DNA of 64,000 nt from the IMG/VR virus record IMGVR_UViG_3300035680_001736. One strand, written 5' to 3'. The notes under the pieces are model-generated. The model made no database searches. It was not told the origin of the DNA and saw nothing but the letters and a program-made list of their open reading frames with translations. The translations under genes were made by a program, and so were the position numbers. Source of the DNA: an uncultured virus (IMG/VR IMGVR_UViG_3300035680_001736) (lineage: Duplodnaviria; Heunggongvirae; Uroviricota; Caudoviricetes). Positions 32,845 to 63,062 of this stretch are shown one piece after another (the stretch's first letter is position 1; every line of letters starts with the position of its first letter).

Positions 32845-33221
32845 GGGGGTAACTTGGAATTGACTAGCATGGTTGATTACTCGGAGCATGTCGAGGCTGA
32901 ACTAACCTTGTAAAACTGGTTCACACGATAAACGGCAACGTTATCAACAAACTCTCTGCAGTTGGTCTTATCCGTACTGAGGAGAACATTTCAGTAGCCT
33001 AATCTAGGATTAGCCTACAAAACGGGTCGGTAAGCATACAACCTTGGAACAGAAGCTCGTACTGTGGTGTGGTTTCTACCCGAAAAGAAGCACAACTCGT
33101 TTGTGGTTTTGAGAGCTCAAAAACCAATATTTCGGAACATTGAGAAGCGATGTTGACCTAAACATGTAGGGCTTAGTAGTTAAAATGAGTAGGAAGGGGT
33201 TCGACTCCCCATACCTCCACC
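32845..33221 (+). ncRNA. ssrA: tmRNA
   Basis: 5' GGGGGTA..GGAATTGAC; 3' GGGGTTCGACTCCCC-ATACCTCCA-CC; G3.U acceptor pair; tag ORF 32934-33002; TATCTTTG promoter upstream; terminator 33229-33255. Confidence 0.93.
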
Positions 33222-33271
33222 GTAAACAAAAATCCCCTCCGAAGAGGGGATTTTTAATTTAATTTTATTAA

Positions 33272-33770: not shown

Positions 33771-33843
33771 TTGCAACTGAAGGATTCGAACCTCCGACCT
33801 TCAGGTTATGAGCCTGACGAGCTGGCCTCTGCTCTAAGTTGCG
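33771..33843 (-). tRNA. tRNA-Met(CAT), initiator-like
   Basis: CGCAACT...CTCATAA...GTTCGAATC; C1:A72 mismatch. Confidence 0.9.
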
Positions 33844-33859
33844 ATGTAATAGTTGAACT

Positions 33860-34700
33860 AAGCCTGAGATTACAGCTTTGAGTGAGAACCTTTTGAAGGA
33901 TTATTGTTTCCCTTCTTATCCACTTCCTTTTGAGAAGTATTTCTCAGTCACGGTCTTTTAGGTTTACCACTCCTTGAGGTTTAAGTTACTCTCTTATTAC
34001 TTAACTCTTTCCGAGGTTGCCACCCCAGTTCATCCTTGCGGGATTAAAGGTTTTTCGTAAAACTACAGTTAGACTTGGGGTCTTTCTGTGCCACGGACAA
34101 CCCGTGACTGTGTAGTGACCTTTCACTCAAACCTGATGGACACTTTTCCTTTAATTATTGTTCATAATTTTAGATTTGTGTCGTGGATGTGTCAGAGTAG
34201 TGGTCCACCTTAAGCTCCGTCTCCTTTTGGGCGACGAAATACTAAACTACTCCGTGAGATATCCCTATCTCCATACTTTCAGATTACTTCATAAAGAGAC
34301 CTTGGTAGGTCATCTTTAGGGGTAGTAGCGACACCACTCGTTCTCTACCTTACCTTTCGGTTTTAAATCCCCTTCGGTATTGGAATCCGCAATTGTGTAG
34401 TTGGAGCTACGTTTCTTACTTGATTCCTATGGGTTATTCTTGTTGGTGTTCCCACCTCAACTTGACAATCCACTTTGCCAAGTCACCTGACCACTTTCCC
34501 TACAGTGTTACCCTCGGTACTAAAGGTCTTGTGATATCCCACTTGTGTACTCGAGTTCCTTTCGAAACCGCAACCTCCTCAACACGGGGGAGGTCACTTT
34601 ATCCTACTTTCGTAGTTTATTTAAGGACCATACACGGCCCATTATCTTTTATCAGTTGTCATCACCCGAAGGTTACTTTCACTGAATGGATAATCTTACT
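33860..34700 (-). ncRNA. Large structured ncRNA, GOLLD-like (~840 nt)
   Basis: GC-richer, no credible ORF, many GNRA/UUCG hairpins, own promoters and boxA, directly upstream of a tRNA, 3' hairpin loop TGTAATCTCAG. Family assignment rests on size, context and recalled motifs only. Confidence 0.7.
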
Positions 34701-36104: not shown

Positions 36105-36557
36105 TTAAACCGTATGGTCAATATTAACCCTAATACAAGTTTGAGGTTTATTTTCATTCATCAAAAAATTATTAATATACCCCATAATATTTGCCGAGCC
36201 GATAGGATTGGCCGAGTGTACGACTACCAAAGGAAATTTAATACTACTAGCACCCTTTTTGGAACGGCTCATCTCAATCCTATCAGGATTCATTTCATAA
36301 AAATAATCTACAATCCATTTTGTACAATCATATCCGGTTTTTTCCTTAATATTATCGTAATCCAATTTGTAGTTTGGGGATACATTTGCAAAATACTCAT
36401 TCACTGCGGTATCACCCAAATCATGGTCCAATGAGATTGTTTCAATTTCACCGAGACCAATCTCAGTTACTTTATTAACAAAATCGTCGTAATTTCTAAC
36501 AACAATCCAATCGTTAGATAGAGGTGTACGAATGTCATCCAAATAAATTCTTTTCAT
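36105..36557 (-). CDS. Cyclic-phosphate-processing receiver-like domain protein
   Basis: YLDDIR, SLDHDLG, TGYD, VHSANPIG motifs. Confidence 0.75.
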   Translation of the reverse strand: MKRIYLDDIRTPLSNDWIVVRNYDDFVNKVTEIGLGEIETISLDHDLGDTAVNEYFANVSPNYKLDYDNIKEKTGYDCTKWIVDYFYEMNPDRIEMSRSKKGASSIKFPLVVVHSANPIGSANIMGYINNFLMNENKPQTCIRVNIDHTV

Positions 36558-38332: not shown

Positions 38333-38399
38333 TGTTAGGTTTTATAGTAAATATCTTGAACAAAACGCGAGTTAGATATGAACTATAGTTTTTCAGTTG

Positions 38400-38473
38400 T
38401 AGTCGGAGTGGGAGTTGAACCCACGACCATCACGGTATAAGCGTGCAACTCTAACCACCTGAGCTATCCGACT
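38400..38473 (-). tRNA. tRNA-Ile(TAT)
   Basis: Acceptor AGTCGGA/TCCGACT; anticodon loop CTTATAC; T-loop TTCAACT. Confidence 0.82.
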
Positions 38474-38479
38474 ATGTTT

Positions 38480-38683
38480 CCCCACCTTGAGATTATTGGT
38501 GAGTAGATTTATCGGTTTTCTATTTCTTAAAAACCTGCTGGTCTTACCCGTTAAAAACATCCAACACTACTGGGAGGGAATGTGTCTATCCCTTTATCCC
38601 ACGATGTCCCACTCGCGCCGTAGACATTCTGCGGAATCATTCTTTAAGTCTTGATTCGAAGACTCTGAGTATCTCTTACTCAT
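38480..38683 (-). ncRNA. ~200-nt multi-hairpin RNA of unknown class
   Basis: Hairpins GAGTA/TACTC, AGTCTT/AAGACT, GGTTTT/AAAACC, CTCACC/GGTGGG; lies between tRNAs. Confidence 0.6.
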
Positions 38684-38685
38684 TG

Positions 38686-38794
38686 TAGTCAGGACAAGAA
38701 TCGAACTTGTATAGTCACCTCCTTGATTCACGTCCGATTGGGAGGATTACTGAACTCGTGATACAACTACTGGCGCCAATTCCGCCACCTGACT
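38686..38794 (-). ncRNA. tRNA-like RNA (109 nt) with non-canonical interior
   Basis: AGTCAGG/CCTGACT acceptor; ACAAG-TTCGATT-CTTGT T-arm; no standard anticodon arm. Confidence 0.75.
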
Positions 38795-38892
38795 ATTGGG
38801 TTATTTAACGTCACTACTTTATTAAACCTCGGTATCATTGAGGTATCTACACCCCTCATTTAATAAATCGTCACCCATTTGACGAGCCTCTG

Positions 38893-38965
38893 TAGTCAGG
38901 ACAGGAATCGAACCTGTATTCCCTAATTAAGCGTTAGGTACTTTACCAGTTAAGTACACCTGACT
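38893..38965 (-). tRNA. Atypical tRNA (loop CGCTTAA; nominal Lys-CTT but G33)
   Basis: AGTCAGG/CCTGACT acceptor; TACT/AGTA D-stem; CCTAA/TTAGG stem; ACAGG-TTCGATT-CCTGT T-arm. Confidence 0.7.
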
Positions 38966-38970
38966 ATGTT

Positions 38971-39422
38971 GGGTGGGTTAATGAGTGGTTTCCCCCACCT
39001 CTTTTTACTCTGTATCAATCTACTTGCGAAGTAGTATCAACCTGCGCCACTCTGTGAATTTTTAGGGTGAGAAACCCTATGTGTTGTAGTGATGACTCTA
39101 GTGTCACTAAGCTCTACTCCTTTCCTTTCTCAAGGGAACAACACATTAAGTTTAGGTAAGGGGAAGATGGTCGAGTGGACAACCCCTTTTACGATTGGCA
39201 TTACTTCAGGTGAATACCTGCCAACTCCGATTATACCAGTCGGTATCCACTCTCAAACTATTGGTATAATCATTCCCCAATCAACCTATAATGTGGTCGG
39301 TGGGGGAGGAATAAGAGCGACTTATTCCCTTAAAGCTCTACTTGTCGTTTATCCATCGTGTTTTAAAAACACCGTAGCTACGTTTGACTTGGATATATCT
39401 AACTTTCGTCTGCCACCCCACC
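38971..39422 (-). ncRNA. Array of four small structured RNAs (39299-39422, 39153-39288, 39079-39146, 38971-39052)
   Basis: Each is closed by its own helix and two show pseudoknot pairings; downstream of a TATATTTG promoter (39449-39456) and boxA. Confidence 0.6.
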
Positions 39423-39459
39423 TTTTAAATATTTTTAAAGAACTTCTACAAATATACGA

Positions 39460-39792
39460 CTATTTTTCCAATTCACCTAATTCTTCTTTCAATCTTTTCA
39501 AAAAACTTTCTTCTCCATCATCGCCCGATAACAACCAATCAATACGTTGAGCATAAACTGCGGCGACTCTAAGAACTTTCATACCCTCCTTGAATTTTTC
39601 AATTACCTCATCAGGATATTTGTAATGACTTAAATCTTCAGGATATTTCTCATACCAATCATCCCCACGCCATCCTTCTTCTTTGAGTTCCTCTCGTGTT
39701 TTTTCACGACCATTTTTCTCAATCAGTTTCTCAACGTCATCGGCAATTTGTTCAATATGCCATTGTTTGTAGTCGAATGCTCCTCCTGACAT
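39460..39792 (-). CDS. Hypothetical phage protein
   Basis: 110-aa ORF (MSGGAFDY...RIDWLLSGDDGEE). Confidence 0.85.
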   Translation of the reverse strand: MSGGAFDYKQWHIEQIADDVEKLIEKNGREKTREELKEEGWRGDDWYEKYPEDLSHYKYPDEVIEKFKEGMKVLRVAAVYAQRIDWLLSGDDGEESFLKRLKEELGELEK

Positions 39793-39793
39793 T

Positions 39794-39976
39794 TTATATT
39801 TCTTTTAATTGTGATTTAGAACATGCTTTACCGAAACTGAATGCTCCTTGACTATCGTGACCACCAGGAATTTGATTATAGTATTTTCCATCGGTCATTG
39901 ATAATTCAAGCCATACAGCCTTTGATGGGTTAAGTTTTTCACCACATCTTTCACACCATATTGTTTCTTGTTTCAT
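39794..39976 (-). CDS. Small hypothetical Cys-containing protein
   Basis: CERC...SQGAFSFGKAC; TAAATTTG 4 nt upstream. Confidence 0.8.
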   Translation of the reverse strand: MKQETIWCERCGEKLNPSKAVWLELSMTDGKYYNQIPGGHDSQGAFSFGKACSKSQLKEI

Positions 39977-39999
39977 TGGACAAATTTAAGTATTTAATT

Positions 40000-40140
40000 T
40001 TAAACCACCAAATCTTTTTTTGAGAATTTCATAAACTCATAACCTTCTTGAAACATTCTATCCAATAACTCAACGGTTATCTCGTCAAGGTCAATCATTC
40101 CAATCATTTTGTTTTTCTTGTATACTCCGATGTATTCCAT
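40000..40140 (-). CDS. Small hypothetical protein (46 aa, not in ORF track)
   Basis: MEYIGVYKKNKMIG...; TATCTTTG upstream at 40161-40168. Confidence 0.6.
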   Translation of the reverse strand: MEYIGVYKKNKMIGMIDLDEITVELLDRMFQEGYEFMKFSKKDLVV

Positions 40141-40199
40141 AGTTTTTAGTTTTAAGTAGACAAAGATACAACAAATTAGGTTACGATAAGATTAAGTTA

Positions 40200-40682
40200 T
40201 TAACAAATTTTGAATGCGAAATTAATCACTCGTTTCTTCATTGTTGCGTCAGATGCGTTTCCAACGACTTGACCATCAATGATTGAAAATGCGTGACCAC
40301 GAACAACCACAAGATACTTACCAACAGGATATTTCTTAATAAACGTACTGGTGGTCATATTACGTTTAACCATTTGACCTTTGGACTTAACATCATATTT
40401 CATATGTCCGTACTGGTTACCCAAATTTGAGAATGATTTTCCATTAATCAGAATTTTATTGTCAACCATATGACGCATACCACCGACAAAGTTTCTTGTT
40501 CCTTCAAAGTTTTTACGGAACCAAATCTTTGCAACAAACTTGTGAGCCTCATCATAATGCATTTCAAATGATGACGAGATGGCTCTTACGACACAATCAT
40601 TTTTTTCGGTTTTGGCAATTGTTGAATCAGAGTATCCAATAATCGCCTCTTTTGTGGGTATGTATTTGATTTCGTTATTCAT
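40200..40682 (-). CDS. Hypothetical phage protein (NDCVVRA...GHAFSIIDG)
   Basis: Start moved to MNNEIKY, 4 nt after TATATTTG. Confidence 0.8.
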   Translation of the reverse strand: MNNEIKYIPTKEAIIGYSDSTIAKTEKNDCVVRAISSSFEMHYDEAHKFVAKIWFRKNFEGTRNFVGGMRHMVDNKILINGKSFSNLGNQYGHMKYDVKSKGQMVKRNMTTSTFIKKYPVGKYLVVVRGHAFSIIDGQVVGNASDATMKKRVINFAFKIC

Positions 40683-40774
40683 ACCACAAATATACGGCGA
40701 ACAACTCATCCCACAAAATTAAGTTATTAACAAAAAAAATACCACCCGAAGGTGGTATTTTCTTTTTTGGTCGA

Positions 40775-41803
40775 TTATTGGACCACAAATTTGTTTGTGG
40801 ACGTTATTGTACCATTTCGGTCAACCGTGTTAAGAACGTAGATTCCCGAAGAAAGTAATGATTTAACATCAATAACAACTTTACTTTGGTTTACATTTTC
40901 TTCATATACAATTTGACCTGACAAATTCATAATTCTTAGTTTTTGACCACTATAATCGTTCAGACCAGACAAATCAATATTAATAACATCTGTAGTTGGG
41001 TTGGGGAATACATCAATGTTTATAACTATGTTGGGGTTATCAGTATTAGTTGGGTTTTGGGAATTTGAATCTCTATAAAGTTTAAAAACTTCATCCTCAT
41101 TCAAATCTCGATTCCACATTCCTACATCATCTAAATTACCTGATAAAAATCTGTACATATTACCTTGGAAATTATCAGCTCCAAAAAATAAATTATTTTC
41201 AGATGGACAAATATCACCATATGTAGTTTGTTCACCGGTTAATACTCCATTAACATACATTTTTCCACCATTTACAGGACTATGAGTAAAGACTAAGAAA
41301 TGCCATTTATCATCAGCAGTACAAGTTCCACCATTAACATTATTACCATTAATTGTATTCATATTAGTTGATGATATAAAGTTATTATCACCTATCAACA
41401 TTGTATATGAATCAAAAGACCCTCCATTACATACATCAAAGTATGAAAAAAACCATTTAGTAACAATTCCTTGGTAATCATCTACACTACTACCGACAGG
41501 TTTTTTTAACCATACAGAAATTGATAACGATGGGACGTTAGAAATACTTTCAGAATTATCGACCAAAATAAAATTATCAATTCCATTAAAATTATAGGCC
41601 ATATCAGAATTACCAAATCTATCCATAGTTAAAGACGAACCAAAAACCTGTCCGTGGTTTTGATTTCCACTTTCATCATTGGCATTACCGTCAAACGGCC
41701 ACCAACCGATAAGACCATTTGTTGGTAAATAATTTGGTACTTGAGATACAATCAAGTTGTAATAAAAAAGAGAAATTAATGTAAAAAAAATTGTTTTTTT
41801 CAT
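40775..41803 (-). CDS. Secreted LamG-domain protein with T9SS type A sorting domain
   Basis: Signal peptide; GWWPFDGNAND...DRFG; C-terminal VFPNPTTDVINI...SGIYVL...KFVVQ. Confidence 0.9.
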   Translation of the reverse strand: MKKTIFFTLISLFYYNLIVSQVPNYLPTNGLIGWWPFDGNANDESGNQNHGQVFGSSLTMDRFGNSDMAYNFNGIDNFILVDNSESISNVPSLSISVWLKKPVGSSVDDYQGIVTKWFFSYFDVCNGGSFDSYTMLIGDNNFISSTNMNTINGNNVNGGTCTADDKWHFLVFTHSPVNGGKMYVNGVLTGEQTTYGDICPSENNLFFGADNFQGNMYRFLSGNLDDVGMWNRDLNEDEVFKLYRDSNSQNPTNTDNPNIVINIDVFPNPTTDVINIDLSGLNDYSGQKLRIMNLSGQIVYEENVNQSKVVIDVKSLLSSGIYVLNTVDRNGTITSTNKFVVQ

Positions 41804-41972
41804 GTTATATATATTTTAAATTATTGAATACAAATTAAAGTCATTTTTTTTAAACTGCCAAATTTTTTATGTGTTTGGTTAAATGTTGATTCCAAAGTAA
41901 GACGTAAATAAAATGGAATTATTCCATCTTTTCTTACATAAGTTGATATTACGATTGCTAATTTAATAATTA

Positions 41973-42758
41973 TTAATCTTGATTTTTTTTATAAAATCTA
42001 TTTTCTTCAGGTTGATACCATTCATCTAATGAAGCCGGTACCCTTGAAGAATATCCCAGAAATTGTTGCATTTTAGGAGTAAAGGTGTTCATAATATCAT
42101 ACCCTAAAGCTCTTGGGTAATCAAGTAATTGTTTCATAAATGACCTACTTATAGTTATTGGTATTGCTCGTCTATTTTTATTAGTTTTGTTAGGTGATGA
42201 CGAATGCCATACATTAGAATTAAATATTAATATGTCTCCTCTATTTCCTGTCGCCTGATATGAGTTTGAAAAAAATTCTGAATCGGATGGTTTTTCCTCA
42301 CTTAAATGAGAACCTGATAGTAAAAAAGTTCCACCATTTTCTAAAGTAAAATCGTCAACCATAACTAAACAATTAATCATAATTGGGAAATCTCCCGAGT
42401 AAAACCTCAAATCTCTGTGGATAATTGATGAAAAATTTGGTTTAAATGGTAGGTTATTTAACGCACTAAATGAATTTAAGATACAGTTACTTTTAAAAAA
42501 ATTATTTTGTAGTGAATCAATAAATCCATTGTCAAGTAATACTTGTAAAAATTCAATGAAAATCTTACTGTCTAAAATAGCGTGGAGAGCAACTCCATCT
42601 GAGTTTATTTCATTATTATTACTTATTTGAATATTTCTATGTTTAACAAAAGATTTATCCATCTCTTCAGAAAGCATATCTAACCATTCTGTGCTAACTT
42701 GATTTTTAATTATAGTATGACCTTTCATACTTAATTCATTTAATTGGTCAATTGTCAT
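41973..42758 (-). CDS. Phytanoyl-CoA dioxygenase-family 2OG-Fe(II) oxygenase
   Basis: HRD...DDFTLENGGT...GSH...GDILIF...WH...N...R. Confidence 0.88.
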   Translation of the reverse strand: MTIDQLNELSMKGHTIIKNQVSTEWLDMLSEEMDKSFVKHRNIQISNNNEINSDGVALHAILDSKIFIEFLQVLLDNGFIDSLQNNFFKSNCILNSFSALNNLPFKPNFSSIIHRDLRFYSGDFPIMINCLVMVDDFTLENGGTFLLSGSHLSEEKPSDSEFFSNSYQATGNRGDILIFNSNVWHSSSPNKTNKNRRAIPITISRSFMKQLLDYPRALGYDIMNTFTPKMQQFLGYSSRVPASLDEWYQPEENRFYKKNQD

Positions 42759-43420
42759 TTTAAAAATTTTTCTCCTTTTATTCTTTTTCTAATTATTTTA
42801 GCCGGATTACCATACGCTAAAACATCGTCAGGTAAAGATTTAATTACTAAACTTCCAGCACCAACAACAGTATTATCTCCTATTTCTAATCTATCTAAAA
42901 CAGTGACTCCCAGAGTAATTGCCGAATATTTACCAATTTTTACATAACCTCCAGTAATTGAACCCGCGGAAATACTTGCAAAGTCTGATATTATATTATC
43001 ATGTTCAACCTGAGCCCCTGTTGCAAAAAAAGTAAAGTCACCAATTTTTGATTTTGGGTTAAATATACATCCGGCCATAGCCACAATCCCAACACCCATC
43101 TCAGTTGTATTACCAATGATTACTGATGGATGTATTGCGTTAACAAATTTGAAATTAGGAACCATTGAAATTATTTTTTCATGTACGTAATACCTAGTCC
43201 AATTCTCACCTATTGATATTACACCTCCATAAACTTCATATTCATTTATTATTTGTTTTAAATTTTCTTCTCTTCCTAAAATTTTATATCCATATTTAAT
43301 ACTACCAATTTCATTTATCGAATCAATAATACCTACAATTTTATATTTATTTTCTTTTTCAATAATGTCGATGGTATAATGAGATTGATTACCCCCACCA
43401 AATAAAACAATATTTTCCAT
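42755..43420 (-). CDS. NeuD/PglD-family sugar acetyltransferase
   Basis: Rossmann-like N-terminus; EHD motif; hexapeptide repeats; GNPAK. Confidence 0.9.
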   Translation of the reverse strand: MENIVLFGGGNQSHYTIDIIEKENKYKIVGIIDSINEIGSIKYGYKILGREENLKQIINEYEVYGGVISIGENWTRYYVHEKIISMVPNFKFVNAIHPSVIIGNTTEMGVGIVAMAGCIFNPKSKIGDFTFFATGAQVEHDNIISDFASISAGSITGGYVKIGKYSAITLGVTVLDRLEIGDNTVVGAGSLVIKSLPDDVLAYGNPAKIIRKRIKGEKFLK

Positions 43421-43422
43421 AA

Positions 43423-44067
43423 TTAATTAATTTTAGTGTAGATTTTAAATTTAGATAAATCAGGATAAGGTAATTCTAAATCTTCGTTGATAATAGGAAT
43501 TCCCTTCGAATCATAGAACTGACTAATTAAAAGTAATCCTCTTGCCGCAATTTCAGGCATCATGTAGAAATTCCATCCGATTACCGGATTTTTATCAAAA
43601 TCATCATCATGATAACTACATTCATCACGACCGCTAAATCTAGCCTTTTTAAACCACTTGTAGGCATTTTCATCATCAGTTAAAATAGCACCACCTTTGC
43701 CCAATTTTAAATGTTTGTATGGTCCTGTGAAAGATACACACATATGTGTGTTTGGAATGTACATGTTATGAGTAAATCTTAACGCACTATCCCAAACTTT
43801 AGTTGGATATAACTGATATGCCCCTTTAATCGTATCTCCTTCCACATTAAAGAATTTAACTTTACCTCCTGCGTGAATTATTTCACAAGGGACCGATGGA
43901 TATGTCCTACAAGGAATTTCAATATCCATTCCCTTCACATTTTCATACATCAGAGATAAAAAAAGTGCATTACTTTGATTATCTACTGTAACTACAAACG
44001 GAGCTCCGGTATAGTCTGATAATTTTTTTTCAAATTCTTCAGTTATTTTATGAACGCCTTGTGCCAT
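43423..44067 (-). CDS. DegT/DnrJ-family PLP aminotransferase (short form)
   Basis: FEKKLSDYTG, DSA, SFTGPYKHL..GKGGAILTDD, GWNFYM. Confidence 0.85.
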   Translation of the reverse strand: MAQGVHKITEEFEKKLSDYTGAPFVVTVDNQSNALFLSLMYENVKGMDIEIPCRTYPSVPCEIIHAGGKVKFFNVEGDTIKGAYQLYPTKVWDSALRFTHNMYIPNTHMCVSFTGPYKHLKLGKGGAILTDDENAYKWFKKARFSGRDECSYHDDDFDKNPVIGWNFYMMPEIAARGLLLISQFYDSKGIPIINEDLELPYPDLSKFKIYTKIN

Positions 44068-44152
44068 TTTTCTTATAAAAATCTTTTGTTATTAAGTACC
44101 CAAGTCCCATTCCGACCCAAATACCAATTAATAATAATTCTAACCCATTCAT
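44048..44152 (-). CDS. Small membrane peptide (34 aa)
   Basis: MNGLELLLIGIWVGMGLGYLITKDF... Confidence 0.5.
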   Translation of the reverse strand: MNGLELLLIGIWVGMGLGYLITKDFYKKNGTRRS

Positions 44153-44170
44153 AGTAAATTAAAAAAATTG

Positions 44171-44315
44171 TAGTCAAGGAAGGATTCGAACCTCCACGGG
44201 CTGCCATTATAGTGACCACACGCATTGTGCTTTTTTACCCCTAGTGCTATAACCATCTAGTACGTCTACCTTGAGAGTATGTTTCCGGAGACTCTCAATA
44301 TTCCGCCACTTGACT
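44171..44315 (-). ncRNA. Expanded tRNA-like RNA (145 nt)
   Basis: AGTCAAG/CTTGACT acceptor; Leu-type D-arm with an inserted hairpin; oversized anticodon and variable arms; GGAGG-TTCGAAT-CCTTC T-arm. Confidence 0.75.
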
Positions 44316-44327
44316 ATGTTTAACTAG

Positions 44328-44401
44328 TGCACCCTGCAGGATTCGAACCTGCCACCCAGTGATTATGAGTCACTTGCTCTAACCTAATGAGCTAAGGGTG
44401 C
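44328..44401 (-). tRNA. tRNA(CAT), probably Ile2 (lysidine type)
   Basis: GCACCCT...AGTGA-CTCATAA-TCACT; resembles ileX-type tRNA. Confidence 0.85.
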
Positions 44402-44403
44402 TT

Positions 44404-44693
44404 TGGTACTGGGTGTGGGACTCGAACCCACACGGACGCAATGTCCACAGGATTTTCTTACCACTATAGTTTTCACTACCAACTAAAAGTTGTTTGTGGT
44501 CTGGACTATACCTTCACCATATCTTACGATTTAGGTGCTCCGTGTCTAGTCTCTACACCTTCCTTTTCAGGCTTGGCTCGGGGTTCCCACTTTCGGAGGG
44601 TTCACCGAATTTACGGAGTTCTACATTCTTGATTTCTCAAGACGCACTCAAATAGTTAAAGTCCTGAATGTCTACCTATTCCATCAACCCAGC
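44404..44693 (-). tRNA. tRNA-Leu(TAA) split by a group I intron
   Basis: Exon 1 44693-44659 ends CAGGA-CTT; exon 2 starts AAAA-TCCTG; long variable arm; encoded CCA. Confidence 0.92.
44457..44658 (-). mobile_element. Group I intron (202 nt, trnL-UAA type, no ORF)
   Basis: P1 with U.G at splice site; P/Q/R/S-like AAATTCGGTGAA, CCCGAGCCAAG, GTAGAGACTAG, GAAGGTATAGTCC; terminal G. Confidence 0.9.
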
Positions 44694-44729
44694 ATTTCAA
44701 ATAACTTTTACAAATATACAGGTAAAACC

Positions 44730-47159: not shown

Positions 47160-47233
47160 TACTCCCGAAGGGATTCGAACCCCTGGCCCACAGATTAGAA
47201 ATCTGTTGCTCTATCCAACTGAGCTACGGGAGC
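47160..47233 (-). tRNA. tRNA-Arg(TCT)
   Basis: Canonical cloverleaf; loop TTTCTAA. Confidence 0.95.
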
Positions 47234-47340: not shown

Positions 47341-47832
47341 ATGGAGAAAGTTTTAGTTCTAAACTCAGATTTTACCCCCATTAATGTGACATCCGTTTAT
47401 AAGGGGTTCAATTTGGTAAATAAAGGTAAGGCTGAGATATTAAAATCTCACGAAAAACCTATACTTGCTGGTTTACAAACATTTGTTAGACCTCTTATTA
47501 TACGTCTTTTCAATTATGTCAAATTCAGATACCACAAATTAAAAATTAATCGTCATAGACTTTTTAGACGAGATGACTATCAATGTGTTTATTGTGGTAG
47601 TAAAAAAAATTTAACGGTTGACCATGTCATTCCTAAATCACGAGGTGGGGACAATACTTGGTTAAATCTTGTTACTTGTTGTTCGTCATGTAACCGTACA
47701 AAAGATAATTGTACACCTGAGGAAGCGGGTATGAAGTTTTTAAAAAAACCATACGAACCAACAATATTTTCAGATGTTGTTAACCCTCAGGTTGAGTTTG
47801 TGTGGGAGGAGTTCAGAAAATCCTTCATATAA
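47341..47832 (+). CDS. HNH endonuclease
   Basis: RDDYQCVYCG..LTVDHVIPKSRGG...NLVTCCSSCN. Confidence 0.93.
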   Translation: MEKVLVLNSDFTPINVTSVYKGFNLVNKGKAEILKSHEKPILAGLQTFVRPLIIRLFNYVKFRYHKLKINRHRLFRRDDYQCVYCGSKKNLTVDHVIPKSRGGDNTWLNLVTCCSSCNRTKDNCTPEEAGMKFLKKPYEPTIFSDVVNPQVEFVWEEFRKSFI

Positions 47833-62204: not shown

Positions 62205-63062
62205 ATGAAAAACACAAAAATTTATCACGAGTTGGTCCAAAAGATGAGGACCTTTTTCCTAAACAAAGGTTTTCTTGAGGTTCCGACCCAATCAAGATTA
62301 TCAATTCTCGCAGCATGTGAGAATCCACACTCAATCACAACGTTTGAGTATCAAGGTCAAATTTGGCCATTACCACAAACAGGTCAAATGTGGTTAGAGT
62401 ATGAATTGTTACAAAATTCCGAATGGCCAGGTGTGTTCTGTATCTCAACATCATACAGACAAGAAAAAGACCCAATCCCAGGTCGTCACGAATTAATCTT
62501 CCCAATGTTTGAATTCGAGTCAAAGGGTGGTATGAAAGAATTACTTAAATTAGAATCTGAATTACTTGCGTTTTTAGGTTTTGATTCTCCTGTTGAAGTG
62601 AATTATGACGATGTTTGTGAAGAATATGGCGGAGTTCCGATTTTGGAAAACGAACACGAAACTAAAATGTGGAAAGAAAAAGGTGATGTGGTGTCATTAC
62701 AAAATTTCCCTGTTAGAACTAACCCATTTTGGAACATGAAGTCAGGTGAAGGTGACAAATTCAATAAAGTAGACGTTATTCTTTACGGTCAAGAAACAAT
62801 TGGTTCTGCTGAAAGAAGTTGTGATGTTGATGAAATGAGACAAATGTTCTATACTATAGAAAACGGTGGTTATTCTGCCAAATTGTTTGAATTGTTTGGT
62901 AAAGAAAGAGTTGAAAAAGAACTTGAAGAGTTTTTATCTCACAAATTCTTTAAAAGATTTGGTGGAGGTATTGGTTTAACTCGTCTTGCCAGAGCATATC
63001 AAATGATGAAAGACTCTCACGATGAATTACACATGAATTATGGTGATGTAAACAAATTTTGA
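62205..63062 (+). CDS. Class II aaRS catalytic-domain protein (AsnRS/AspRS-like, no anticodon domain); probable asparagine synthetase
   Basis: FF...GFLEV, motif 2 YRQE...RH...F.MFEFE, ETIGSAER, motif 3 GGGIGLTRL. Confidence 0.75.
   Translation: MKNTKIYHELVQKMRTFFLNKGFLEVPTQSRLSILAACENPHSITTFEYQGQIWPLPQTGQMWLEYELLQNSEWPGVFCISTSYRQEKDPIPGRHELIFPMFEFESKGGMKELLKLESELLAFLGFDSPVEVNYDDVCEEYGGVPILENEHETKMWKEKGDVVSLQNFPVRTNPFWNMKSGEGDKFNKVDVILYGQETIGSAERSCDVDEMRQMFYTIENGGYSAKLFELFGKERVEKELEEFLSHKFFKRFGGGIGLTRLARAYQMMKDSHDELHMNYGDVNKF

What the first reader, a model, noticed from the sequence alone, without database searches (positions are those of the whole stretch)
38686..44315. Family of tRNA-like RNAs with a shared AGTC(A/G)(A/G)(G/A) acceptor stem and remodelled interiors
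Seen: RNAs at 38686-38794 (109 nt), 38893-38965 (73 nt) and 44171-44315 (145 nt) keep a perfect AGTCAGG or AGTCAAG acceptor helix, an A discriminator and a canonical TTCGA T-arm, but none has a normal anticodon arm. The 145-nt copy has a TTGAGAGT/ACTCTCAA hairpin inserted in the D-loop, and its 'anticodon' loop GTTATAG is complementary to CTATAAT in an oversized variable arm. The 109-nt copy has interleaved TCACG/CGTGA and CCTCC/GGAGG pairings. The 73-nt copy has G33. tRNA-Ile(TAT) has the related AGTCGGA stem. Inference: intact processing elements with structured, divergent cores argue against simple decay. These may be a tRNA scaffold carrying variable RNA cargo, decoys for host anticodon nucleases or uncharged-tRNA sensors, or amino-acid donors for non-ribosomal reactions.
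Basis: partly seen in the sequence, partly recalled or inferred. Interest (0 to 1): 0.88.

Follow-up and report, generated by a model that had tools for sequence, protein, structure and literature searches.

The report
Phage tRNA-shaped RNAs without anticodons
Three small genes of a freshwater phage encode RNAs that keep the ends and elbow of a leucine tRNA but replace the codon-reading part with other folded RNA, and they belong to a large, apparently undescribed family of such RNAs in uncultured phages whose job is unknown.

Summary
On the minus strand, 38686-38794 (109 nt), 38893-38965 (73 nt) and 44171-44315 (145 nt) have perfect 7-bp acceptor stems (AGUCAGG or AGUCAAG), discriminator A and a UUCGAnU T-arm. 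ARAGORN and Rfam do not call the 109- and 145-nt genes. The 73-nt gene is called a weak tRNA-Lys(CUU) with G33.

They are not decayed tRNAs or intron-bearing tRNAs. A 16-mer from their 5' end finds more than 127 IMG/VR stretches, giving 116 distinct complete elements of 70-279 nt. These share a near-invariant tRNA-Leu-like shell around interiors that differ in sequence and length. T-stems and interior helices covary. The 145-type interior recurs in 11 distinct elements with different shells. The 109-type recurs almost unchanged in 10 contigs with different flanks. Contigs from four metatranscriptome libraries cover the RNA arrays. A close relative carries other tRNA or tRNA-like genes in the same slots.

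Most likely these are tRNA-mimic scaffolds, cut out by RNase P and RNase Z, that carry type-specific structured RNA domains. About a third lie just upstream of a gene. Processing, charging and function are all inferred. The closest known cases are T5 RNA1/RNA2 and T4 species 1/2 RNAs. This is a new variant of a known kind.

The parts
38686..38794 (-). 109-nt anticodon-less tRNA-like RNA ('type B'). It has an AGUCAGG shell and a D-arm that lacks UAGA. Its interior holds the interleaved UCACG/CGUGA and CCUCC/GGAGG pairings and a perfect Shine-Dalgarno-like AAGGAGGUGA (38715-38724).
   Evidence: Sequence read. No ARAGORN or Rfam call. R1 scores 54.6 bits. Ten near-identical homologues sit in different flanks. 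RNA-library contigs match it exactly, for example 38683-38764.
38893..38965 (-). 73-nt gene with the AGUCAGG acceptor and family T-arm. It is otherwise a near-canonical tRNA-Lys(CUU) with G33, a 3-nt acceptor-to-D connector and a 4-nt variable loop.
   Evidence: ARAGORN. Rfam 36.7 bits, with alignment. R1 49.0 bits. Its D-arm 16-mer was found with this acceptor only in the near-identical contig G002.
44171..44315 (-). 145-nt tRNA-like RNA ('type A'). It has an AGUCAAG shell and a hairpin inserted in the D-loop (44271-44298). An anticodon-like stem-loop GUUAUAG (44247-44253) is complementary to CUAUAAU (44206-44212) in a two-hairpin variable domain.
   Evidence: Sequence. Eleven-sequence alignment A1 and pair counts. 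R1 20.3 bits.
38400..38473 (-). Canonical tRNA-Ile(UAU) with the related acceptor AGUCGGA and the same AUAGUC...GACUACA flanks. It is the last gene of the array.
   Evidence: (60.7 bits). It is 96% conserved in the relative G001.
38966..39430 (-). 465-nt non-coding leader of the array, strongly structured. It follows a TATATTTG promoter-like motif at 39449-39456.
   Evidence: Fold z = -3.34, with 0 of 100 shuffles as stable. The first 308 nt are 97% identical in G001. RNA-library contigs cover it.
38474..38685 (-). Non-coding spacer between the 109-nt element and tRNA-Ile.
   Evidence: no long ORF on this strand. RNA-library contigs cover it. G001 has a different sequence here.
38795..38892 (-). 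Non-coding spacer between the 73-nt and 109-nt genes.
44048..44152 (-). 34-codon ORF with a hydrophobic product. It starts 18 nt after the 145-nt element and overlaps the start of a sugar-modification operon (43423-44067 and onward).
44328..44401 (-). tRNA-Met immediately upstream of the 145-nt element, in the same transcription unit.
44404..44693 (-). tRNA-Leu(UAA) interrupted by a 202-nt group I intron. It is the first gene of the unit, after TATATTTG at 44711-44718. Its D-arm has the same architecture as the family shell.
   Evidence: ARAGORN with introns. Rfam Intron_gpI 49.5 bits against a gathering score of 50, E=1.6e-11. Sequence.

Best explanation
The three genes encode non-decoding, tRNA-shaped RNAs of a large phage family.

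The family shell copies the top half and elbow of a class II (leucine-type) tRNA. Its parts are:
- acceptor AGUCAGG/CCUGACU;
- U8-G9;
- D-arm GCGGAAU(U)GGUAGACGC with G18G19;
- U48;
- T-arm ACAGG-UUCGAAU-CCUGU;
- A73.
U lies at -1 and C at +74, and CCA is not encoded.

The space of the anticodon and variable arms is filled by an interchangeable, type-specific folded domain.

Proposed mechanism (inferred):
1. The shell makes the RNA a substrate for the host's tRNA-processing enzymes. RNase P cuts at U-1/A+1, RNase Z or exonucleases cut after A73, and CCA may then be added.
2. Each element is therefore cut out of long non-coding arrays or mRNA leaders and accumulates as a stable small RNA.
3. 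The interior domain is the part that acts, on a target still unknown.
4. Where an element sits 12-23 nt before a start codon, as the 145-nt copy does, the same cut would also give the downstream mRNA a short A-rich leader.

Shown here: the family, its conservation, covariation, modular exchange, and presence in RNA libraries. Inferred: processing, stability, any charging, and the function of the interiors.
For: 1. Size and anatomy of the family
- Of 147 matches, 116 are distinct complete elements of 70-279 nt. Seventeen matches without a recognisable 3' end were set aside.
- The 3' half was not part of the search pattern, yet it is conserved. The T-stem is ACAGG/CCUGU in 86 of 116 and the T-loop UUCGAAU in 70 of 116. 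The base before the T-stem is U in 105 of 116 and the discriminator is A in 101 of 116.
- In the flanks, the first trailer base is C in 110 of 116 and base -1 is U in 99 of 116. CCA is encoded in 2 of 116.
- By recalled RNase P biochemistry, U-1 and an A73-C74 start of the RCCA motif are favourable for cleavage.

2. They are not decoders
- ARAGORN gives a call for only 24 of 116, with scattered and often impossible anticodons.

3. RNA-level selection
- T-stem variants are compensated: GUAGG/CCUAC, GAUGG/CCAUC, ACUGG/CCAGU, GCCCG/CGGGU.
- Type A alignment (11 sequences): 99% of cells paired and 6 pairs with changes on both sides. The covariation score is 0.171 against 0.081 for shuffles, reached by 0 of 500.
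- A separate 6-member interior type has an 11-bp arm with 3 compensated pairs.
- Interiors fold better than shuffles: mean z = -0.69, n = 112, p = 5e-10.

4. Interiors are conserved as units
- The type A interior occurs in AGUCAAG and AGUCAGG shells, with four different D-loop hairpins or none.
- The type B interior is nearly identical in 10 contigs with unrelated flanks.

5. The class is tied to the leucine chassis
- A search on the D-arm alone gave 84 complete genes. Forty-eight are ordinary tRNA-Leu of 80-86 nt with varied, mostly G1-type acceptors. Thirty-six are 92-222 nt: ARAGORN gives no tRNA call for 31 of them, and the other 5 get spurious or malformed anticodon calls. Fifteen of the 36 have AGUC-type acceptors.

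6. RNA evidence
- Contigs assembled from four metatranscriptome runs match the arrays. One 82-nt contig is identical to 38683-38764, inside the 109-nt gene.

7. Gene context
- 35 of 100 elements have an ATG ORF starting within 40 nt, with a mode at 12-23 nt. The figure for random positions is 86 of 580.
- The window's 145-nt copy lies 18 nt before a 34-codon ORF.

8. Precedent
- T5 RNA1 and RNA2 are annotated as tRNA-like stable RNAs. RNA1 has the same D-arm type and a long interior.
Against: - No mature ends, CCA tails or aminoacylation were observed. The RNA evidence comes from assembled contigs, which cannot show ends, strand or level, and RNA libraries can contain DNA.
- Recognition by RNase P and Z depends mainly on shape. 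It does not explain why the acceptor sequence AGUCAGG itself is so constant. That points to a sequence-specific partner, or to homogenisation by recombination.
- The 145-nt copy scores no better than ordinary tRNAs with the shell model.
- The loop-loop pairing of type A and the pseudoknot of type B never vary, so they are untested.
- The single folds of the three window RNAs are not clearly better than shuffles: z = -1.42, -1.67 and -0.25.
- Interiors show no complementarity to the phage fragment beyond chance, so no target is known.
Confidence: 0.55

Rival explanations
1. They are chargeable tRNA-Leu mimics. Bacterial LeuRS does not read the anticodon (recalled knowledge). The leucine-type shell (A73, D-arm, U48) would therefore let the host enzyme leucylate these RNAs. 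They would then act off the ribosome, as leucine donors or as sinks for LeuRS, EF-Tu or other tRNA-binding proteins.
For: - The chassis is specifically the tRNA-Leu type. The D-arm is identical in architecture to the phage's own tRNA-Leu(UAA).
- 36 of 84 phage genes carrying this exact D-arm are over-long and lack a canonical tRNA-Leu anticodon call.
- A73 is present in 101 of 116 and U48 in 105 of 116.
- Strict conservation of the acceptor sequence suits recognition by an enzyme that reads the acceptor end.
Against: - Charging was not tested.
- The 73-nt copy has a different D-arm. The 109-nt copy lacks UAGA of the D-loop, and the 145-nt copy has a hairpin inserted there. The D-loop is where recalled LeuRS identity elements lie.
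- The A1-U72 acceptor is unlike the 48 true tRNA-Leu genes found.
- The window's own class IIb synthetase-core paralogue is not a general partner. It occurs in 3 of 29 element-bearing contigs and in 0 of 6 near-complete ones.
Confidence: 0.14
2. They are pure punctuation signals, like plant mitochondrial t-elements. Only the shell matters, as a cutting site that defines mRNA and tRNA ends. The interiors would be unconstrained filler.
For: - 35 of 100 lie directly before a same-strand ORF, against 15% for random positions.
- 13 of 115 lie 3-11 nt after a TAnnTTTG promoter motif.
- Interior length varies continuously from about 17 to more than 130 nt.
Against: - Interiors are conserved as units across unrelated contexts: type A in 11 elements, type B in 10 contigs.
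- They show compensatory changes and fold better than shuffles.
- 65 of 100 are not next to an ORF.
- Filler of 50-200 nt is unlikely to persist in phage genomes.
Confidence: 0.12
3. They are decoys or resistant substitutes against host tRNA-targeting defences such as anticodon nucleases or acceptor-end toxins. The G33 tRNA-Lys(CUU) would be a cleavage-resistant lysine tRNA. Type A would display a UUAUA loop like that of tRNA-Ile(UAU).
For: - G33 sits next to the wobble base in an otherwise regular tRNA-Lys.
- The type A loop GUUAUAG shares UUAUA with the anticodon loop of the window's tRNA-Ile(UAU).
- Slots in the array are exchanged between close relatives, as expected under an arms race.
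Against: - Most family members have no anticodon-like loop at all.
- The type A loop is predicted to be paired to its own variable arm.
- The G33 variant was found only in this phage lineage.
- No defence system is linked to any of this by a result here.
Confidence: 0.1
4. The conserved shell is mainly a DNA-level recombination module that lets phages swap RNA and gene cassettes. The RNAs themselves would have little function.
For: - The same leader end (…CCCACCCAACAU) is followed by three different genes. These are the 73-nt gene here, tRNA-Glu in G001, and a 109-type element in a metagenome contig.
- The 109-nt slot holds a different 122-nt element in G001.
- Breakpoints fall at gene boundaries.
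Against: - Compensatory changes that keep helices intact show selection on the RNA.
- U48, G18G19 and the T-loop are tRNA tertiary-fold features that DNA exchange does not need.
- RNA-library contigs match the elements.
Confidence: 0.05
5. They are decaying pseudo-tRNAs, or tRNAs with introns that are spliced to a canonical form.
For: - Neither the 109-nt nor the 145-nt gene is called by tRNA finders.
- A real group I intron interrupts the neighbouring tRNA-Leu.
Against: - The shell is conserved in 116 elements and there is covariation.
- ARAGORN with introns allowed gives no call at its default threshold. At a relaxed threshold it gives only arbitrary ones.
- The extra sequences are far too short for group I or II introns.
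- Members of 70-80 nt have no anticodon arm to restore.
Confidence: 0.03

Closest known systems
Phage T5 RNA1 and RNA2. GenBank AY543070, 30501-30644 and 32959-33083, annotated 'tRNA-like stable RNA with unknown functions'.
   Same: - They are small RNAs encoded among tRNA genes, other stable RNAs and an HNH endonuclease gene.
- RNA1 has a leucine-type D-arm (CCGGAAUUGGUAGACGG), a T-arm and an interior of about 85 nt.
- RNA2 has an 8-bp terminal stem and the T-arm GCAGG-UUCGAAU-CCUGU.
- Their function is unknown.
   Different: - Their acceptor sequences differ from AGUCAGG.
- The family model scores them 26.0 and 24.2 bits, which is the range of ordinary tRNAs. True members score 49-62 bits.
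- They are not members of the AGUCAGG family by sequence.
Phage T4 species 1 and species 2 RNAs (rnaC and rnaD). GenBank AF158101, 70908-71171.
   Same: They are stable small RNAs of unknown function, co-located with the tRNA cluster and a homing endonuclease gene. rnaC ends in a tRNA-like T-arm.
   Different: There is no leucine-type D-arm and no AGUCAGG acceptor. R1 gives rnaC 22.6 bits.
t-elements of plant mitochondria (PMC1920247; seen only in the listing and abstract).
   Same: They are tRNA-like structures next to genes that are said to contribute to mRNA 5' and 3' end formation. This is the same logic as the proposed cut 12-23 nt before phage ORFs.
   Different: They are organellar, unrelated in sequence, and not known to carry conserved interior domains. 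No processing has been shown here.
Canonical class II tRNA-Leu of phages.
   Same: They share the same D-arm 20-mer, U48, T-arm and A73. In the D-arm search, 48 of 84 complete genes are true tRNA-Leu.
   Different: True tRNA-Leu genes are 80-86 nt, have varied acceptors that mostly begin with G1, and have a 7-nt anticodon loop. The elements here are 92-222 nt, usually with an A1-U72 AGUC-type acceptor and no anticodon loop.
Engineered 'tRNA scaffolds' for RNA expression, and viral tRNA-linked small RNAs such as MHV68 tRNA-miRNA units and mascRNA. These are recalled and come from no call.
   Same: A tRNA shell provides processing and stability for an unrelated RNA placed in or beside it.
   Different: They are artificial or eukaryotic. 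Relatedness was not tested, and the resemblance is only one of design.

Membership tests
Canonical tRNA (Rfam RF00005 / ARAGORN) | 7-bp acceptor stem with a discriminator, and a 5-bp T-stem with a 7-nt UUCRAnY loop | tested here: met
   All three genes meet this.
Canonical tRNA (Rfam RF00005 / ARAGORN) | 5-bp anticodon stem with a 7-nt loop and U33 | tested here: not met
   The 109-nt and 145-nt genes have no such arm and get no ARAGORN call. The 73-nt gene has the stem and loop but carries G33.
Canonical tRNA (Rfam RF00005 / ARAGORN) | Reaches the Rfam gathering score of 29 bits | tested here: inconclusive
   The 73-nt gene scores 36.7 bits and meets it. The 109-nt gene has no match at E<=5. 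The 145-nt gene scores 16.4 bits.
AGUCAGG-shell tRNA-like RNAs of phages (working family defined here) | Acceptor AGUCAGG/CCUGACU, A73, U at -1 and C at +74 | tested here: met
   The 109- and 73-nt genes match exactly. The 145-nt gene has the compensated variant AGUCAAG/CUUGACU. All three have U-1 and a CA trailer.
AGUCAGG-shell tRNA-like RNAs of phages (working family defined here) | Leucine-type D-arm GCGGAAU(U)GGUAGACGC | tested here: inconclusive
   The 145-nt gene has it, with a 28-nt hairpin inserted. The 109-nt gene has it without UAGA (GGCGGAAUUGGCGCC). The 73-nt gene has a different D-arm.
AGUCAGG-shell tRNA-like RNAs of phages (working family defined here) | Score with a covariance model built from 39 independent members (R1) | tested here: inconclusive
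   The 109-nt gene scores 54.6 bits and the 73-nt gene 49.0 bits. A member in G001 scores 62.1, and ordinary tRNAs score 12-34. The 145-nt gene scores only 20.3 bits.
AGUCAGG-shell tRNA-like RNAs of phages (working family defined here) | Interior shared with members that carry the canonical shell | tested here: met
   The interior of the 145-nt gene also occurs in canonical AGUCAGG shells without a D-loop insert (L343, L354, L368). The 109-type occurs in 10 contigs.
tRNA interrupted by a self-splicing intron | A group I or II intron fold whose removal restores a tRNA | tested here: not met
   There is no intron-family match in either gene at E<=5, and ARAGORN -i gives no default call. The neighbouring tRNA-Leu(UAA) does meet this feature.
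T5 RNA1/RNA2 and T4 rnaC/rnaD stable RNAs | Sequence relatedness | tested here: not met
   R1 gives 26.0, 24.2 and 22.6 bits, in the range of ordinary tRNAs. No cultured-phage record covers 80% or more of a consensus element (0 of 283 records with a match).
T5 RNA1/RNA2 and T4 rnaC/rnaD stable RNAs | Accumulates as a discrete stable RNA in infected cells | not testable with these tools
   Only contigs of RNA libraries were available. Ends and abundance cannot be read from them.

The most novel reading that the evidence does not exclude
Phages of Bacteroidota and other hosts use one universal leucine-tRNA shell as a plug-in chassis. Any structured RNA effector placed in the anticodon/variable position is then made, cut out and stabilised by the host's own tRNA machinery. 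The cassettes are traded between phages at the shell boundaries.

In this reading the window's copies are two such effectors:
- Type A holds a UAU anticodon mimic clamped to its own AUA 'codon'.
- Type B folds a perfect Shine-Dalgarno sequence (AAGGAGGUGA) against anti-SD-like UCAC...CUCC. This could address the normally hidden anti-SD of Bacteroidota ribosomes.
Probability: 0.2. Interest if true: 0.9.

Novelty: new variant of a known kind. Interest (0 to 1): 0.72.

Why it matters
tRNA-like stable RNAs of T4 and T5 are annotated with unknown function and, as I recall, have stood that way for decades.

This window shows that such RNAs are not oddities of two coliphages:
- That family has an almost invariant leucine-tRNA shell and swappable, conserved interiors.
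- It is not in Rfam 15.
- Five full-text searches did not find it.

If the shell is a natural tRNA scaffold, several things would follow. It would explain how phages express stable small RNAs without their own processing enzymes. It would give a defined set of new structured RNA domains to study. It would also correct annotation, because 92 of 116 members are missed by ARAGORN and the rest are mis-called as odd tRNAs.

Unannotated relatives in cultured phages make the question testable at the bench. T5 RNA1 and an Enterococcus phage EFDG1 element are examples.

Tried and rejected
- **Intron reading.** ARAGORN with introns up to 400 nt calls only the neighbouring tRNA-Leu at its default threshold. 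At 90% threshold it gives arbitrary calls for the two elements: Arg(cct) with a 16-nt 'intron' and Arg(ccg) with a 70-nt one. Rejected.
- **Orthologues by synteny.** Eighty loci were fetched through the downstream aminotransferase gene. Only one, a near-identical phage, had the element. The others have coding sequence upstream.
- **Bacterial genomes.** The 16-mer gave 123 matches. About 11 are real elements, all on MAG contigs. These are Sediminibacterium, Flavobacterium, Chitinophagia and several small contigs of doubtful binning. The rest are chance matches inside genes.
- **Cultured phages.** None of the 283 matching records covers 80% or more of a consensus element. The hits are T-arm or D-arm pieces.
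- **Phage-encoded partner.** The class IIb synthetase-core paralogue (62205-63062) is present in 3 of 29 element-bearing contigs and in 0 of 6 near-complete ones. It has no PDB relative by sequence. Rejected as a general partner.
- **Antisense targets.** The longest complementary runs of the three interiors to the 81.6-kb phage record are 10-12 nt. Shuffles give the same.
- **Shine-Dalgarno motifs.** They are not enriched in the 116 interiors: GGAGG occurs 5 times against 5.3 expected.
- **Homologues of the 73-nt type.** In 32 loci carrying its D-arm 16-mer, this acceptor occurs only in the near-identical contig G002.
- **RNA-library cover.** The coding stretch 39600-44158 between the two arrays had little or no contig cover in the four RNA runs. 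Neither is used as support.
- **Earlier notes of this scan.** Look-ups by place and by sequence gave nothing.
- **T5 records.** AY587007 does not carry the RNA1/RNA2 annotation. The coordinates of its tRNA-Leu did not give a tRNA-like sequence, so AY543070 was used instead.
- **Not attempted.** No protein structure or complex prediction was run, because none bears on the RNA question.

Full report
**What is in the window**

The window is part of an 81.6-kb IMG/VR virus record judged 28% complete.

The phage has several recognisable features:
- T4-like capsid, portal and terminase genes, plus DnaK- and ClpB-like genes.
- An ORF with a T9SS sorting tail, which is typical of Bacteroidota.
- TAnnTTTG promoter-like motifs before its RNA arrays.
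- Its DNA is held by many lake-water metagenome runs.

All RNA genes discussed here are on the minus strand.

ARAGORN finds five tRNAs, including tRNA-Ile(UAU) at 38399-38473 and 'tRNA-Lys(ctt)' at 38892-38965. Rfam adds a GOLLD RNA (321 bits) and a tmRNA. It gives the Lys gene only 36.7 bits.

Neither tool reports the 109-nt gene (38686-38794) or the 145-nt gene (44171-44315), even at E<=5. The one exception is a partial 16.4-bit tRNA match for the 145-nt gene.

The exception is that the 73-nt gene has a regular anticodon stem and loop, with G33 as its main defect.

The shared flanks AUAGUC...GACUACA are more frequent than chance. The counts are 10 against 4.0 expected and 7 against 0.85 expected, and no shuffle of 100 reached either.

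**The genes belong to a large family**

Several contigs carry three or four copies.

The 147 matches gave 116 distinct complete elements of 70-279 nt. Seventeen matches were set aside. They were truncated loci, copies with an insertion in the 3' acceptor strand, or copies with unusual T-arms.

The elements share this layout: AGUCAGG-UG-GCGGAAU(U)GGUAGACGC, then an interior of about 17 to more than 130 nt, then U-ACAGG-UUCGAAU-CCUGU-CCUGACU-A.

The 3' half was not part of the search pattern, yet it is strongly conserved:

| Feature | Count |
|---|---|
| T-stem ACAGG/CCUGU | 86 of 116 |
| T-loop UUCGAAU | 70 of 116 |
| U before the T-stem | 105 of 116 |
| Discriminator A | 101 of 116 |
| Trailer starts with C | 110 of 116 |
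| Base -1 is U | 99 of 116 |
| CCA encoded | 2 of 116 |

ARAGORN calls only 24 of the 116, with scattered anticodons. Six of those calls have malformed anticodons of two or four bases.

I built a covariance model (R1) from 39 of these elements, none from the window. Its scores are as follows:

| Sequence | R1 bits |
|---|---|
| 109-nt gene | 54.6 |
| 73-nt gene | 49.0 |
| Family member in the relative G001 | 62.1 |
| Ordinary tRNAs | 12-34 |
| 145-nt gene | 20.3 |

In bacterial genomes the 16-mer is almost always a chance match inside genes. About 11 of 123 matches are real elements, all on MAG contigs. Several of these are Bacteroidota. The family is therefore essentially viral.

**The shell is a leucine-tRNA shell**

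The D-arm has the same layout as the phage's own intron-bearing tRNA-Leu(UAA).

Searching IMG/VR with the D-arm 20-mer alone, leaving the acceptor free, gave 109 distinct sequences. Of these, 84 had a recognisable 3' end:
- 48 are ordinary tRNA-Leu of 80-86 nt, with varied acceptors that mostly begin with G1.
- 36 are 92-222 nt. ARAGORN gives no tRNA call for 31 of them. The other five get odd calls: Leu(taa), Asp(atc), Pro(agg) and two with four-base anticodons.
- 15 of those 36 have AGUC-type acceptors, which makes this the largest single group.

So over-long, anticodon-less derivatives of the leucine chassis are common in phages, and AGUCAGG marks the main lineage.

**The RNAs are under selection**

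T-stem variants are compensated.

The interior of the 145-nt gene ('type A') was found in 12 distinct sequences. A further 15 distinct sequences matching the probe were unrelated coding sequence. Eleven type A sequences were aligned.

The same interior sits in AGUCAAG and AGUCAGG shells. It occurs with four unrelated D-loop hairpins or with none. Two of the hairpins differ by a compensated C-G to A-U change, read directly from the alignment.

On a structure that I wrote from the sequences, the pair counts were:
- 99% of cells pair.
- Six pairs change on both sides. These include the closing pair of the anticodon-like stem (C-G, A-U and G-C), a pair in the acceptor and two pairs in the T-stem.
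- The covariation score is 0.171 against 0.081 for shuffles, reached by 0 of 500.

Several caveats apply. There are only 11 related sequences. The structure was partly derived from them. Columns 59-74 were fixed by the search pattern.

The GUUAUAG/CUAUAAU pairing is invariant in all 11. It is therefore conserved but untested.

A different six-member interior type has an 11-bp arm with three compensated pairs. Across 112 interiors the mean fold z-score is -0.69, p = 5e-10.

The 109-nt type ('type B') was found in 4 viral and 6 metagenome contigs. It is nearly identical in all of them but has unrelated flanks. That fits a conserved, mobile module, but it gives no covariation for the proposed pseudoknot.

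The 73-nt type was found only in this phage lineage.

**Slots are exchanged**

A close relative, G001, has the same array. Its leader is 97% identical and its tRNA-Ile is 96% identical.

Three things differ in G001:
- It carries tRNA-Glu(UUC) where the window has the 73-nt gene.
- It carries a different 122-nt AGUCAGG element where the window has the 109-nt gene.
- It lacks a 94-nt module of the leader.

A metagenome contig has a 109-type element directly after the same leader end. Exchange therefore happens at the gene boundaries.

**RNA evidence and gene context**

Contigs from four metatranscriptome runs match the arrays. One 82-nt contig is identical to 38683-38764, within the 109-nt gene. 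Other contigs carry the same element joined to other upstream sequence.

This is consistent with transcription in several relatives. Contigs cannot show ends, strand or level, and RNA libraries can hold DNA.

In the wider family, 35 of 100 elements are followed within 40 nt by an ATG ORF, with a mode at 12-23 nt. The figure for random positions is 86 of 580.

In addition, 13 of 115 lie 3-11 nt after a TAnnTTTG motif. The 145-nt gene is 18 nt before a 34-codon ORF that leads a sugar-modification operon.

**Interpretation**

The best-supported reading is a tRNA-mimic scaffold. The shell provides the features used by RNase P, RNase Z and the CCA enzyme: the acceptor/T minihelix, the elbow, U-1, and A73-C74. 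The roles of those features are recalled knowledge.

The interior is a type-specific structured domain that does the work. Where a gene follows, excision would also trim its leader.

What this reading does not explain is the near-invariance of the acceptor sequence itself. That suggests a sequence-reading partner, or homogenisation by recombination.

The leucine chassis keeps open the possibility of charging by LeuRS, which does not need an anticodon (recalled). A phage-encoded synthetase-core paralogue in the window is not the general partner. No antisense target was found.

The Shine-Dalgarno-like AAGGAGGUGA in type B is striking in a phage whose genes show no such motif. It is not a family trait and may be coincidence.

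**Comparison with what is known**

T5 carries RNA1 and RNA2, annotated as 'tRNA-like stable RNA with unknown functions'. They lie among tRNAs, other stable RNAs and an HNH endonuclease gene. RNA1 has the same D-arm type and a long interior.

T4 has species 1 and 2 RNAs beside its tRNA cluster.

These are the same kind of thing, but they are not members by sequence. Their R1 scores are 22-26 bits.

An unannotated element with a leucine-type D-arm and an interior of about 150 nt follows a tRNA in Enterococcus phage EFDG1.

Rfam 15 has no family for these RNAs.

Five full-text searches found no description of this family. One of them used the literal sequence.

A 2023 survey of candidate structured RNAs in viruses (PMC10690425) mentions tRNA-like candidates only in general terms. 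I read the passages found, not its supplements, which might list related motifs.

I reached the family independently and verified the T5 annotation.

**Verdict**

The 'not simple decay' inference is supported. The scaffold idea is the best available mechanism but remains unproven, and function is unknown. This is a new, large variant of the old and unexplained class of phage tRNA-like stable RNAs.

Noticed in passing
window 44404-44693 (-): tRNA-Leu(UAA) interrupted in the anticodon loop by a 202-nt group I intron. Rfam gives 49.5 bits against a gathering score of 50, E=1.6e-11. CCA is encoded. It heads the unit that ends with the 145-nt element.
   Followed up: partly
window 33861-34254 (-) and 33771-33843 (-): A full-length GOLLD RNA (321 bits) lies directly upstream of a tRNA-Met.
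   Followed up: no
window 32845-33222 (+): Rfam finds a phage-encoded tmRNA (93 bits) that ARAGORN did not report. The middle of the alignment has low confidence.
   Followed up: no
window 38966-39430 (-): The 465-nt leader of the tRNA-like array folds far better than shuffles (z = -3.34, 0 of 100) and has a long-range closing helix. A 94-nt module (about 39057-39150) is absent from the relative G001 and from RNA-library contigs of three runs. It shares a GUGUUGUUCCCUUGAGAAAGGAA motif with a spacer in locus L108. This may be a separate, modular structured RNA.
   Followed up: partly
window 62205-63062 (+): A 285-aa class IIb aminoacyl-tRNA-synthetase catalytic core without an anticodon-binding domain. 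It has weak matches to AspRS/AsnRS and to the EF-P lysine ligase EpmA, and no PDB relative by sequence. Orthologues with 77-91% identity occur in 3 of 29 phage contigs searched.
   Followed up: partly
window 36105-36557 (-) and 47341-47832 (+): There is a protein with a cyclic-phosphate-processing receiver domain (cREC_REC). There is also an HNH endonuclease gene beside tRNA-Arg (47160-47233). This recalls the endonuclease genes inside the T4 and T5 tRNA clusters.
   Followed up: no
loci L029, L038, L078, L104, L371: In several family members the 3' acceptor strand is split by an insertion of about 50-90 nt. The insertion contains a hairpin with a UAGAAAU loop, and a second copy of the acceptor end follows it. 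It may be a small mobile insert or an attachment site.
   Followed up: no
loci L018, L046, L079, L104, L126: A second tRNA-like type, beginning GGCUAUG-UG-GUGGGAGGC and ending with a T-arm and CAUGGCC, follows AGUCAGG elements directly after their 3' end.
   Followed up: no
L338 (Enterococcus phage EFDG1, KP339049) about 396-590: An unannotated tRNA-like gene follows a tRNA. It has acceptor GUCACUG/CAGUGAC, a leucine-type D-arm, an interior of about 150 nt and a T-arm. The same match occurs in about 17 related Enterococcus phages, with no feature annotated.
   Followed up: partly
window 38715-38724 (-): The 109-nt RNA contains AAGGAGGUGA, the full Shine-Dalgarno consensus. It can pair with UCAC...CUCC in the same RNA. 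Genes of this phage show no such motif before their start codons, and the motif is not enriched in other family members.
   Followed up: partly
window 40775-41803 (-): An ORF with a lectin-like domain and a Por/T9SS C-terminal sorting domain, which points to a Bacteroidota host.
   Followed up: no
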